Shown here: piece by piece, positions 2,528-3,766 of the stretch
How the letters are laid out: every line of letters starts with the position of its first letter
How positions within the stretch are numbered: the first letter of the stretch is position 1
Source: a virus
Virus genome (UHGV): UHGV-1421593
Direction: 5' to 3' (one strand)
Length of the DNA stretch: 32,886 nt
Translations under genes and position numbers: made by a program
Notes under the pieces: generated by a model
Told to the model about the DNA's origin: nothing
Database searches by the model: none
The model's input: the letters and a program-made list of their open reading frames with translations, nothing else

Positions 2528-2550
2528 GGGAGCAACAGCTCCCTTATTTT
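2528..2550 (+). terminator. Rho-independent terminator (GGGAGC-aaca-GCTCCC + T-rich tract)
   Basis: Hairpin at 2528-2543 followed by TTATTTT, between convergent genes. Confidence 0.55.
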
Positions 2551-3191
2551 ACGCTCGTCCATTTCGATTCTGAGTTCCATTTTCCGATTCGAGAAAAGAA
2601 CGTGTCTTGTTCATTACCCGGATAACTACGATGAACACCATCGGAAGCGTGATTTCTTGCAGATTTCTCAAGAACTTCCCAGATTGAGTTCATAACAGCT
2701 TCGGTTTCGTTTTTCGCTTCATTATCATCGTATTCGATGTTAACTGTTAATTTATCCATAGAGCCTGTGAACAGATTAAAACTCTCTGTTGGACTGCCAG
2801 TATTAGGATTCAGAAAACAAATATCAATTTTAACGTCTGCTCTGTTTAAAGCTTTCGTTCGAATCAAGTTGATATATTCTTTTCGGATATTAGCCAGCTT
2901 AACGGTCATTCCGATGTTATTAATTTCTTTTTCTTCGCTGATTGAACTGATATCAGTAAAGTCACCAGCGGCAATATAATTCTTACCTTGATATTGCAAG
3001 TCGTAATAAGCATCAGTTAACAACAGTTCTGTGCCGTTATGCATCTTAATCTGAACAAGATGAAACAACGTGCCGACACTGAACAACTGACCAGTAGTCA
3101 GTTCTGTATAATTAGTGCCGTTAAAATCGTTATACGCTTCGATGAAGTCAGGGTCTTTTCTTAGTCTGTTAAATTGGTCTTTTACTGACAT
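2544..3191 (-). CDS. Putative minor tail protein (gpL-like)
   Basis: 215 aa, stop/start overlap with the upstream gpM-like ORF. Resemblance to lambda L is a recalled pattern only. Confidence 0.35.
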   Translation of the reverse strand: MSVKDQFNRLRKDPDFIEAYNDFNGTNYTELTTGQLFSVGTLFHLVQIKMHNGTELLLTDAYYDLQYQGKNYIAAGDFTDISSISEEKEINNIGMTVKLANIRKEYINLIRTKALNRADVKIDICFLNPNTGSPTESFNLFTGSMDKLTVNIEYDDNEAKNETEAVMNSIWEVLEKSARNHASDGVHRSYPGNEQDTFFSRIGKWNSESKWTSVK

Positions 3192-3766
3192 TACACCACC
3201 TCTGTTGCAGTAAGTTTAATATTTGAAATCGATTGAAGATCTAACGGAATAGTATCGTTCGTCAGGATGAATCGCCCTTTCGTTCCTCTGTAATTCACAG
3301 TCTCACCAGCTTGAACGTTCTGCAACAGATTCGGAAAGAGTTTCATCTCTCCACCTGCTTTGACATCCTCCGTGACGGTATAAAGCTTGGAGTGATTCTG
3401 AAACTGAACTAATGTTCCTGCTTCTAAAGTATCGGTGAAGCTGTTCAGAGTGACCTTACGCGCTCCTTTGTTAGCTGTAACAGATGCTTGAATAAGTCCC
3501 TGAGCCGAACCTTTATAGTCAGTCAAGTAGCTTAACGGAAAGTCAAACGGCTGACCTTGTTGATGCATCGCGATAAAGCGTTGAACGTGTCTTGTGTCTT
3601 GCGACATATAATTCACAGTGAAATTCAATTCGAAATATTGCACGCCTGTATAACGTTTCTGAAAACGTCCTGATACTGCTCTGTTAGAGAAAAACGGAGC
3701 ATTTGATTTAAGCTGAACATCGGTCAGCCTAACGTCTGTGTCTAATAGATTCATAAGTCCTCTCAT
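3191..3766 (-). CDS. Putative minor tail protein (gpM-like N-terminal region)
   Basis: Start moved to internal Met (MRGLMNLL) at 3766 so it does not overlap the divergent lysozyme gene. Segment YFELNFTVNY...FIAMHQQGQPFDFPL resembles the lambda gpM pattern. Confidence 0.35.
   Translation of the reverse strand: MRGLMNLLDTDVRLTDVQLKSNAPFFSNRAVSGRFQKRYTGVQYFELNFTVNYMSQDTRHVQRFIAMHQQGQPFDFPLSYLTDYKGSAQGLIQASVTANKGARKVTLNSFTDTLEAGTLVQFQNHSKLYTVTEDVKAGGEMKLFPNLLQNVQAGETVNYRGTKGRFILTNDTIPLDLQSISNIKLTATEVV

What the first reader, a model, noticed from the sequence alone, without database searches (positions are those of the whole stretch)
2544..3766. Non-canonical tail gene order: gpM/gpL-like genes on the opposite strand beside the integrase
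In lambda-like phages the order is V-G-T-H-M-L-K-I-J on one strand. Here the gpM/gpL-like pair is on the minus strand at 2.5-3.8 kb next to the integrase, while V, K-like and J-like genes (23.1-27.8 kb) precede the G/T/tape measure genes (29.7-32.8 kb), and the tape measure gene is followed by a terminator. This suggests rearrangement or module shuffling, or that the gpM/gpL-like calls are wrong.
Basis: inference. Interest (0 to 1): 0.45.

Follow-up and report, generated by a model that had tools for sequence, protein, structure and literature searches.

The report
Rearranged tail genes in E. coli prophage
Two real tail-tip genes do sit backwards next to the integrase of a 33-kb E. coli prophage. 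This is a fixed, inherited reshuffling of self-contained gene cassettes that more distant relatives lack, so it is a modest evolutionary curiosity and not an error or a new mechanism.

Summary
Window 2544-3191(-) encodes a baseplate-hub protein, the equivalent of lambda gpL. Window 3191-3754(-) encodes a distal tail protein (Dit), the equivalent of gpM. The two genes overlap as TAATG.

The window is a whole prophage. A large serine integrase inserted it just upstream of the ybiT start codon, so the tape-measure gene ends at attR and the integrase begins at attL.

About 45 more distant relatives keep the canonical order V-G-T-TMP-Dit-hub-DUF6950-J on one strand. The clade holding this window has V-DUF6950-J first, and its G-T-TMP and Dit-hub/lysozyme units occur in three arrangements. 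One of these has the same hub-Dit-lysozyme unit flipped.

Each moved unit carries its own T4-late-like promoter motif ((T/C)ATAAATA) and ends in a GC hairpin. This probably explains why the order can change without loss of function.

Origin by recombination at these terminator-promoter cassettes or near attP is inferred, not shown. I found no support for a programmed inversion switch, a misassembly or wrong gene calls. I rate it a new variant of a known kind, of moderate-low interest.

The parts
1..55 (-). Host DNA: the 5' end of ybiT (start codon complement at 48-50) and the attL crossover (GTGA, 52-55)
   Evidence: Alignment with the empty site of K-12. 5423 of 5426 E. coli genomes match this stretch.
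114..1619 (+). Large serine recombinase (prophage integrase), 501 aa
   Evidence: PF00239 and PF07508; PHROG 95 integrase E 1e-71.
1778..2515 (+). Gene of unknown function (PHROG 30303). It is present only in the closest relatives.
2529..2542 (.). GC hairpin (GGGAGCaacaGCTCCC) between the convergent unknown gene and the hub gene; a likely two-way terminator
2544..3191 (-). Baseplate hub protein (gpL equivalent, DUF2163), 215 aa
   Evidence: PF09931 above cut-off; PHROG 2048; fold matches to the hub proteins of T5, GTA, JBD30 and Chi. Orthologues follow Dit in all relatives.
3191..3754 (-). Distal tail protein (Dit, gpM equivalent), 187 aa. Its stop overlaps the hub start (TAATG).
   Evidence: PHROG 1302 E 4e-22; weak T5 pb9 hits; sequence read.
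3755..3799 (.). A 45-bp near-palindromic gap between the divergent Dit and lysozyme genes. TCATAAATA lies on both strands (3763-3771 +, 3791-3783 -), each 36-37 nt before a start codon.
   Evidence: The same layout is seen in relative L025.
3800..4285 (+). T4-type lysozyme. It is always divergent from Dit-hub in the rearranged clade.
   Evidence: PF00959; synteny maps.
23134..23610 (+). Major tail (tube) protein V
   Evidence: PHROG 158.
23611..23667 (+). V|DUF6950 junction: hairpin, T-run and CTAAATA. In canonical relatives the G-T-TMP-Dit-hub block sits at this point.
23668..27773 (+). DUF6950 protein ('K-like') and the J-like tail tip protein
   Evidence: PF22262; PHROG 31.
29611..29673 (+). 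Hairpin (GGGAGCCTCGCGCTCCC), T-run and CATAAATA, 36 nt before the G start. A nearly identical cassette lies at V|G in the canonical Serratia relative L009.
29674..32772 (+). G, T and tape-measure cassette
   Evidence: PHROG 344 and 13674. The cassette is found in two positions among relatives.
32770..32798 (+). Terminator hairpin after the tape-measure gene; 26 of 29 bases identical to 29608-29636 (direct repeat flanking G-T-TMP)
32832..32835 (.). attR crossover (GTGA); host DNA upstream of ldtB follows

Best explanation
The two minus-strand genes are the real Dit and baseplate-hub genes of a lambda/T5-like tail tip. They form a compact late transcription unit of their own: a (T/C)ATAAATA promoter-like motif, a ribosome-binding site, two coupled ORFs and a hairpin terminator. 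This unit sits back to back with the lysozyme gene.

In this prophage lineage the ancestral block G-T-TMP-Dit-hub has been taken out from between V and DUF6950-J. It has been re-placed as separate cassettes around the attP-integrase module at the other end of the late region. Integration at ybiT then puts G-T-TMP at the right end of the prophage and integrase plus hub-Dit at the left end.

The order is fixed and inherited; it is not switched. It is probably tolerated because each cassette brings its own promoter and terminator, so expression does not depend on position.

Shown: gene identities, prophage ends, the canonical order in distant relatives, three rearranged layouts in the near clade, and motif placement.

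Inferred: that the motifs are working promoters, that the phage is viable, and that the moves arose by recombination between the dispersed hairpin-plus-promoter cassettes (as with PeSLs in T4-type phages) or by events at attP.
For: Gene identities.

Prophage ends and empty site.

Canonical order: DCP80 bases 1-25 kb and about 45 loci from Escherichia, Serratia, Enterobacter, Atlantibacter and IMG/VR.

Rearranged layouts:
- S1 (the window, MS 115-1, PSS-15, L014, L020-22): int, hub', Dit', lys ... V-DUF6950-J ... G-T-TMP.
- S2 (L019, L023-25, L028 with L108, L111, L113): the same, but the lys/Dit-hub unit is flipped.
- S3 (L011, L015, L018, L026, L027/L076, L078): V-DUF6950-J ... int', hub', Dit', lys, G-T-TMP.

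Window 2553-4252 aligns in reverse to S2 loci, so the flipped unit runs exactly from the hub stop to the lysozyme stop.

All 4 copies of CATAAATA lie 36-57 nt before the starts of lys, Dit, TerL and G. Of 26 (A/C/T)TAAATA-type octamers, 15 lie 15-70 nt before a gene start in the sense direction, against 0.7 expected (binomial 2e-17).

A hairpin plus this motif fills V|G and, in several members, hub|DUF6950 in canonical relatives; the motif also lies at TMP|Dit in some. The same composite fills V|DUF6950 and o105|G in the window.

G-T-TMP is flanked by a 26/29 direct repeat. Between near-identical copies it is mosaic: 83-92% identity against 98-100% for most other genes.

Hub proteins 97-100% identical occur in E. 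coli and Citrobacter, which points to recent transfer.

Precedent for cassette-driven shuffling: PMC2839356 and PMC4122927.
Against: - No virion, excision product or transcript has been observed. Public contigs that end at the element are integrated forms.
- No replication module was recognised in the window. Several copies carry IS insertions, so some or all copies may be defective.
- Breakpoints must fall between genes in any viable phage, and nearly every late intergenic gap has a hairpin or motif. Their coincidence with cassettes therefore discriminates weakly.
- Only two hairpins share clear sequence identity.
- At least three inversions, or one transposition plus one inversion, are needed to get from the canonical order to the window. 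No intermediate was found.
- No homologue of the T4 late sigma factor gp55 was found to read the motif.
Confidence: 0.72

Rival explanations
1. Programmed invertible segment. The serine recombinase next door flips the hub-Dit/lysozyme unit as a switch, in the manner of Gin, Cin or Hin systems.
For: The same unit, from hub stop to lysozyme stop, is found in both orientations directly beside the recombinase gene in related prophages that use the same ybiT site. The two orientations are interleaved in pairwise identity: L014 (S1) hub is 76% identical to L024 (S2) but 69% to L003 (S1), and TerS of L021 (S1) is 96% identical to that of L024 (S2).
Against: No inverted repeats flank the unit; the best flanking pair is 21 nt at 76%, which is chance level. 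All 6 near-identical E. coli genomes, and the IMG/VR and Logan copies at 97-100%, have one orientation. The enzyme is a 501-aa large serine integrase whose att sites are the prophage ends. The unit is symmetric, with a promoter motif on each side, so flipping it would change nothing obvious. The two orientations differ by 25-40% in protein sequence, which is evolutionary distance.
Confidence: 0.06
2. A decaying cryptic prophage. The order is scrambled because the element no longer needs to build tails, and the genes are relics.
For: No replication or classic lysogeny module was recognised. IS elements sit in TerL (MS 115-1), in the TIR gene (PSS-15) and near the hub gene in other strains. Short remnants that hold only lys, Dit, hub, G, T and TMP exist in Klebsiella and Enterobacter. 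No isolated phage of this family is in the phage collection apart from the jumbled DCP80 record.
Against: All structural ORFs in the window are intact and of the same length as in relatives. The same layout is kept across copies that differ by 20-40%, with conserved promoter motifs and hairpins. Near-identical copies occur in two genera. Related integrases have placed diverged copies at the same site, which implies independent integrations by active elements.
Confidence: 0.15
3. The rearrangements came from the integrase acting on attP and pseudo-att sites (inversion, or excision and re-insertion), not from recombination between terminator-promoter cassettes.
For: All three rearranged layouts differ precisely in what lies next to the integrase and attP. 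The integrase gene itself changes strand and type among them (39-41% against 80-100% identity). In S2 the circular form would read G-T-TMP-attP-int-lys'-Dit-hub, which is the canonical TMP-Dit-hub order interrupted only by the integration module.
Against: No att-like sequence was found at the other breakpoints (V|DUF6950, Dit|lys, lys|o99). Those junctions carry hairpin or promoter cassettes instead. The canonical clade uses an unrelated, 559-570-aa recombinase placed elsewhere.
Confidence: 0.2
4. Artefact: a misassembled contig, or gene calls that are not tail genes.
For: None beyond the unusual order. The only phage-database relative, DCP80, is itself a jumbled record.
Against: The layout is the same in six closed E. 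coli chromosomes and in many independent assemblies. Profile and fold evidence support both proteins.
Confidence: 0.01

Closest known systems
Canonical siphophage tail module (lambda V-G-T-H-M-L-K-I-J; T5 pb6-TAC-pb2-pb9-pb3)
   Same: The same set of parts: tube protein, G/T-type chaperones, tape measure, a Dit of the T5 pb9 type, a small hub protein and a J-like tip protein. Distant members of the same prophage family keep exactly this order.
   Different: In the window, TMP, Dit and hub are no longer contiguous or on the same strand. DUF6950-J precedes G-T-TMP, and Dit-hub is its own unit divergent from the lysozyme gene. Dit and hub give no Pfam hits to the lambda gpM or gpL families.
PeSL (promoter-early stem-loop) cassettes of T4-type phages (Arbiol et al. 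2010, PMC2839356; Comeau et al. 2014, PMC4122927)
   Same: Small composite terminator stem-loop plus promoter elements lie between genes and are proposed to act as recombination points that move, delete or swap the genes between them. Here hairpin plus (A/C/T)TAAATA composites bound the moved units, and a 26/29 repeat flanks G-T-TMP.
   Different: The promoter part resembles the T4 late consensus, not a sigma-70 early promoter. The units moved are essential tail genes, not accessory genes. Most hairpins share shape but not sequence. Mini-circles or exchange events were not observed.
Tail tips with a separate small hub protein (RcGTA, JBD30, Chi, R4C; the gpL role in lambda)
   Same: The 215-aa protein has the PF09931 hub attachment domain, and its model matches these hub chains. 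It lies between Dit and a J-like protein in canonical relatives.
   Different: It is shorter (215 aa against 267-292 aa), and the C-terminal 45 residues are modelled with low confidence. The lambda gpL chain did not appear among the top matches.
Phage invertible segments (Mu G/Gin, P1 C/Cin)
   Same: A tail-gene segment beside a serine recombinase gene is found in both orientations among relatives.
   Different: There are no flanking inverted repeats, no mixed orientation among near-identical copies, the enzyme is a large integrase rather than a small invertase, and no alternative coding outcome results.

Membership tests
Distal tail protein (Dit), T5 pb9 type | Sequence match to Dit family profiles | tested here: met
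   PHROG 1302 'distal tail protein' E 4.4e-22. T5 pb9 chains in the PDB at E 0.015 over residues 12-165. Pfam PF21430 is below threshold here (E 0.009) but is on record for orthologues.
Distal tail protein (Dit), T5 pb9 type | Gene lies between the tape-measure and hub genes | tested here: met
   This holds for orthologues in about 45 canonical relatives. In the window only the Dit-hub adjacency is kept.
Distal tail protein (Dit), T5 pb9 type | Forms the hexameric ring at the tail end | not testable with these tools
   Needs virion proteomics or cryo-EM.
Lambda gpM sequence family | Pfam-level match to the lambda minor tail protein M family | tested here: not met
   A Pfam scan at E up to 1 returns only PF21430. 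The protein has 187 aa.
Baseplate hub protein with the PF09931 (DUF2163) attachment domain | Pfam match above the gathering score | tested here: met
   30.1 bits against a cut-off of 26, E 6.6e-7. RefSeq names it a DUF2163 or baseplate hub domain protein.
Baseplate hub protein with the PF09931 (DUF2163) attachment domain | Fold similar to solved hub proteins | tested here: met
   Foldseek against the PDB gives T5/DT57C pb3, RcGTA 6tba_7A, R4C 8gtc_P, JBD30 8rk3_O and Chi 8vjh_D, with E 2e-6 to 9e-4 and probability 1.0. The model is of medium quality only (pLDDT 61.6; TM-score normalised to the query 0.41-0.48).
Lambda gpL sequence family | Pfam-level match to the lambda tail protein L family | tested here: not met
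   A Pfam scan at E up to 0.01 returns only PF09931. A PDB profile search by sequence finds nothing.
Large serine recombinase prophage integration | Resolvase and Recombinase domains; hybrid att sites with a short shared core at both prophage ends; intact attB in strains without the element | tested here: met
   PF00239 and PF07508. GTGA is shared at window 52-55 and 32832-32835, and K-12 has the uninterrupted site.
PeSL-type mobile regulatory cassettes | Composite stem-loop terminator plus promoter between genes, at the edges of moved modules | tested here: met
PeSL-type mobile regulatory cassettes | Promoter is a strong sigma-70-like early promoter | tested here: not met
   The motif is (A/C/T)TAAATA with no -35 element. 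The sigma-70 scan finds nothing in the Dit/lys gap.
PeSL-type mobile regulatory cassettes | Copies share enough sequence to recombine; mini-circles are detectable | tested here: inconclusive
   Only 29608-29636 and 32770-32798 are 26/29 identical. Other hairpins share form but not sequence. Mini-circles cannot be tested here.
Site-specific invertible segment (Gin/Cin/Hin type) | Inverted repeats at both ends of the segment | tested here: not met
Site-specific invertible segment (Gin/Cin/Hin type) | Both orientations among near-identical copies | tested here: not met
   All copies at 96-100% identity have the window's orientation.

The most novel reading that the evidence does not exclude
This family of low-GC enterobacterial prophages runs its late genes from T4-late-like (T/C)ATAAATA or CTAAATA promoters placed after nearly every terminator hairpin, yet it has no recognisable gp55-type sigma factor. 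If these 'late-promoter stem-loops' are read by an unknown phage factor, or by a co-infecting T-even phage, and are also the recombination points that let essential tail cassettes move, the family would be a natural example of essential structural genes being shuffled by mobile regulatory cassettes. It might also be a prophage whose late genes can be switched on by another phage.
Probability: 0.1. Interest if true: 0.7.

Novelty: new variant of a known kind. Interest (0 to 1): 0.35.

Why it matters
The tape measure-Dit-hub order is widely regarded as one of the most stable features of long-tailed phages, and annotation pipelines use it to name these poorly conserved genes. This prophage clade breaks the order in three ways while keeping every gene intact, so annotation that relies on order alone would mislabel them. 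The clade also offers a system for asking whether tail gene order matters for assembly, because sister lineages differ only in cassette position and strand. Finally, it extends the idea of shuffling at promoter-terminator cassettes from accessory genes of T4-type phages to core tail genes of a temperate siphophage-like element. None of this overturns current understanding.

Tried and rejected
- Megablast of window 1-12000 against the phage collection found no match.
- tblastn of both proteins against phages found only DCP80. That record turned out to be a jumble of a relative plus T4-like pieces, so I used only its first 25 kb as a relative.
- A PDB sequence-profile search with the hub alignment found nothing.
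- The genome-contig scan gave only 3 loci.
- A G-protein search with a single sequence gave only close copies; an alignment was needed.
- Rfam found no hit, so no retron msr/msd call. No tRNA genes were found.
- I first recalled that this might be the classic 34-kb retron-Ec67 element. The review PMC6868368 places Ec67 in a 186-related prophage, so I dropped that link.
- I looked for a T4 gp55 homologue to explain the promoter motif and found none.
- I looked for inverted repeats that could drive a flip of the hub-Dit-lysozyme unit and found none above chance.
- I checked whether ~33-kb Logan contigs were excised circles. They end 26-31 nt into ybiT, so they are integrated copies.
- I tried to derive the window's order from the canonical one by a single inversion or a single circle excision and re-insertion. 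No single event works; the minimum is three inversions, or one transposition plus one inversion.
- Literature searches for ybiT prophages and for DCP80 returned nothing relevant.
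Full report
**What the window is.** The 32,886-base window is a complete prophage-like island of Escherichia coli with a few dozen bases of host DNA at each end. Window 1-4300 is 99.6% identical to the chromosomes of E. coli MS 115-1 and 2021CK-01361. In those strains the island lies between ybiT and ldtB. Comparison with the empty site in K-12 shows that host sequence runs to window 55 on the left and resumes at 32832 on the right. The four bases GTGA are shared at both joints. The ybiT start codon lies only 2-5 bases from the crossover.

The first gene (114-1619) is a 501-aa large serine recombinase with Resolvase and Recombinase domains. So the tape-measure gene ends in a terminator with nothing after it simply because the prophage ends there. 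If the element excises, the tape-measure terminator would be joined through attP to the integrase gene.

**Gene map.**
- Integrase.
- A gene of unknown function (1778-2515).
- Hub (2544-3191, minus strand) and Dit (3191-3754, minus strand).
- T4-type lysozyme (3800-4285).
- A small gene and a TIR-domain gene.
- Small terminase.
- A retron Ec67-family reverse transcriptase on the minus strand.
- A few small genes.
- Large terminase (12247), head-tail joining protein, portal, and a protease-capsid fusion.
- Two small genes.
- A 341-aa tube-like protein and a 1027-aa fibre.
- Tube protein V (23134), DUF6950 (23668) and the J-like tip protein (24084-27773).
- A small gene, endonuclease VII, a minor tail protein and a small gene.
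- G (29674), T (30018) and tape measure (30373-32772).

The 215-aa protein:
- passes the Pfam gathering score for the baseplate-hub attachment domain PF09931;
- hits PHROG 2048 'tail protein';
- has an AlphaFold model built from 13 homologues that is only of medium quality (pLDDT 61.6);
- has best PDB matches that are all tail-tip hub proteins: pb3 of T5 and DT57C, and the small hub chains of RcGTA, R4C, JBD30 and Chi (E 2e-6 to 9e-4).

The upstream protein:
- hits PHROG 1302 'distal tail protein' at E 4e-22;
- matches T5 pb9 weakly;
- starts at 3754, giving 187 aa, with a GAGG ribosome-binding site. This agrees with RefSeq and with the 186-188-aa homologues.

The Dit stop and hub start overlap as TAATG. 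Neither protein hits the lambda gpM or gpL Pfam families. They are functional equivalents, not sequence-family members.

**Relatives.** The hub protein has homologues in prophages across Escherichia, Citrobacter, Klebsiella, Enterobacter, Pantoea, Serratia, Salmonella, Rahnella and Atlantibacter. I mapped all window proteins by tblastn on about 130 loci from genomes, IMG/VR and Logan assemblies. This gave the following layouts.

- **Canonical layout.** About 45 loci whose hub is 43-58% identical to the window's, and bases 1-25,000 of the GenBank record DCP80, read V, G, T, tape measure, Dit, hub, DUF6950, J, (endonuclease VII), minor tail, small gene, lysin, all on one strand. An unrelated 559-570-aa serine recombinase often lies on the opposite strand after them.
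- **The rearranged clade.** All loci with a hub at least 62% identical form a second group. In this group DUF6950-J follows V directly, and the lysozyme gene is always back to back with Dit-hub. It has three layouts.
  - S1 (the window, MS 115-1, PSS-15, L014, L020-22): integrase, hub', Dit', lysozyme ... V, DUF6950, J ... G, T, tape measure.
  - S2 (L019, L023-25, L028; right ends in L108, L111, L113): the same, but the lysozyme/Dit-hub unit is flipped. The excised circle would read G, T, tape measure, attP, integrase, lysozyme', Dit, hub.
  - S3 (L011, L015, L018, L026, L027/L076, L069, L078): V, DUF6950, J ... integrase', hub', Dit', lysozyme, G, T, tape measure.
- **A fifth variant.** L114 and L115 are canonical up to J and then have minor tail, small gene and lysozyme inverted.

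The PSS-15 copy is only about 80% identical in DNA to the window, yet it has the same layout at the same site. An S2 element with an 80%-identical integrase uses the same attachment site. The window's order is therefore a stable property of a lineage. It is not an assembly error or a private accident.

**Anatomy of the moved units.** The 45-bp gap between Dit and lysozyme is nearly palindromic. It carries TCATAAATA on each strand, 36-37 nt before each start codon.
- CATAAATA occurs only four times in the window. The other two copies lie 57 nt before the large terminase gene and 36 nt before G.
- When the motif is widened to (A/C/T)TAAATA-type octamers, 15 of 26 copies lie 15-70 nt upstream of a gene start in the sense direction. 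The expectation is 0.7 and the binomial probability is 2e-17.
- In the late region the motif usually follows a GC hairpin and a T-run: after the capsid gene, after the fibre gene, after V, and after the small gene before G. It also lies after J, though there no hairpin precedes it.
- The motif resembles the T4 late promoter consensus TATAAATA (PMC1524935). I found no homologue of the T4 late sigma factor gp55, so what reads it is unknown.
- The Dit-hub unit ends in the hairpin GGGAGCaacaGCTCCC, which it shares with the convergent upstream gene.
- G-T-tape measure starts after hairpin plus CATAAATA and ends in a hairpin. The two hairpin regions are 26/29 identical direct repeats.
- In canonical relatives, hairpin-plus-motif composites sit at V|G and, in several members, at hub|DUF6950. 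The motif also occurs at tape measure|Dit in some.
- The Serratia relative L009 has at V|G almost the same cassette (GGGAGCCTCGTGCTCCC, T-run, CATAAATA) that the window has before G.
- In the window a single such composite remains at V|DUF6950, the place the block left.

**Most likely explanation.** The ancestral block was bounded by terminator-promoter composites and was subdivided by another one. It was moved in pieces to the region around the integration module. Because each piece keeps its own promoter-like motif and terminator, its position and strand no longer matter for expression.

The way it happened is inferred. Recombination between dispersed stem-loop/promoter cassettes is documented for accessory genes in T4-type phages, including the formation of small circles (PMC2839356, PMC4122927). 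The flanking 26/29 repeat and the mosaic state of the G-T-tape measure cassette fit that picture. Between the window and MS 115-1 this cassette is 83-92% identical in protein, and the fibre 77%, against 98-100% for the other genes.

The test is weak, however, because any viable breakpoint must fall between genes and nearly all late gaps carry such elements. An origin through integrase action at attP and secondary sites is a fair rival, since all three rearranged layouts differ exactly in what adjoins the integrase. No single inversion, or single excision and re-insertion, converts the canonical order into the window's. At least three inversions, or one transposition plus one inversion, are needed, and I found no intermediate.

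**Rivals.**
- **A programmed flip of the hub-Dit-lysozyme unit.** This is suggested by its two orientations beside a recombinase gene and by the interleaving of S1 and S2 in pairwise identities. Against it:
  - there are no flanking inverted repeats;
  - every copy at 96-100% identity has the same orientation;
  - the enzyme is an integrase whose sites are the island ends.
- **A decaying cryptic prophage.** This cannot be excluded. I recognised no replication module, several copies carry IS elements, and short remnants exist in Klebsiella and Enterobacter. Against it:
  - the window's structural genes are all intact;
  - the layout and its regulatory motifs are conserved over 20-40% divergence;
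  - near-identical copies occur in both E. coli and Citrobacter.
- **Misassembly and wrong gene calls.** Both are refuted.

**Verdict.** It is a lineage-specific variant of a well-known tail module, made possible, as far as the evidence goes, by a cassette-like layout of promoters and terminators. It is of some use for annotation and as a natural test of whether tail gene order matters, but it is not a new kind of system.

Noticed in passing
window, whole late region; examples 3763-3771(+), 3791-3783(-), 12189-12197, 23644-23651, 29637-29645: A T4-late-promoter-like motif ((T/C)ATAAATA or CTAAATA), usually just after a GC hairpin, precedes many genes. Of 26 copies, 15 lie 15-70 nt upstream in the sense direction (expected 0.7). 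No gp55-type sigma factor was found in the window or in relatives.
   Followed up: partly
L001 and L129 (GenBank PQ671644.1, Escherichia phage DCP80): The record is filed as a 141-kb T4-like 'complete genome'. It looks like a concatenation: bases ~1-25,500 are a siphophage-like relative of this prophage, and the rest is shuffled T4-like pieces (two nucleoid disruption genes, a terminase fragment beside the sheath gene, gp37 beside the capsid gene).
   Followed up: partly
window 19989-23072 and 29674-32772, compared with L002 (E. coli MS 115-1): Between otherwise 98-100% identical copies, the fibre is only 77% identical in protein, G and T 92%, and the tape measure 83%. These cassettes have been exchanged recently.
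   Followed up: partly
window 4626-5821 and 7187-8956(-): There is defence-type cargo inside the prophage. A small gene plus a CAP12/Pycsar-type TIR-domain gene lie between the lysozyme and small terminase genes. A 589-aa reverse transcriptase that RefSeq names 'retron Ec67 family RT/endonuclease' lies between the small and large terminase genes. Rfam finds no msr/msd RNA.
   Followed up: partly
window 48-55; L004 (K-12 ybiT-ldtB gap): The crossover GTGA lies 2-5 bases upstream of the ybiT start codon. The prophage therefore replaces the whole 5' untranslated region and ribosome-binding region of this ABC-F ATPase gene with phage sequence.
   Followed up: no
E. coli genomes, hits H10-H22 (for example O111:H- 11128, O103:H2 12009): Fifty-three complete genomes matched only at 60-80% identity. 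The 13 listed carry a recombinase about 75% identical in DNA beside ybiT, presumably other prophages that use the same site. They were not examined.
   Followed up: no
L002 18291-19411; L003 6334-7562; hits H5 and H8: IS elements interrupt some copies: IS3 in the large terminase gene of MS 115-1, IS2 in the TIR gene of PSS-15, and IS50R or IS3 near the hub gene in E-93 and L3Cip3. The window copy has none.
   Followed up: partly
L011 (Klebsiella pneumoniae), L018 (Enterobacter hormaechei): These are prophage pieces that begin at the hub gene next to host DNA and run hub', Dit', lysozyme, G, T, tape measure. An IS element follows, directly in L018 and a little further on in L011. In L018 the hub gene is the last phage gene before host DNA, which places attP between hub and integrase in that layout.
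   Followed up: partly
L114, L115 (IMG/VR): This is another layout in the same family: canonical up to J, then the minor tail gene, a small gene and the lysozyme gene inverted as a block.
   Followed up: no
window 18951-19976 and 23134-23610: There are two paralogous tube-like genes. A 341-aa one carries fibre-like or Ig-like repeats and is followed by a 1027-aa fibre with T4-fibre-like domains. The 158-aa V gene comes afterwards. Relatives carry T4 gp34, gp36 and gp38-like fibre domains and a UvsW-like helicase.
   Followed up: no
L003 3322-3372; L025 1569-1631: Tiny hydrophobic ORFs (16 and 20 aa) sit between the integrase gene and the hairpin that borders the hub-Dit-lysozyme unit, in both the S1 and S2 layouts.
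   Followed up: no
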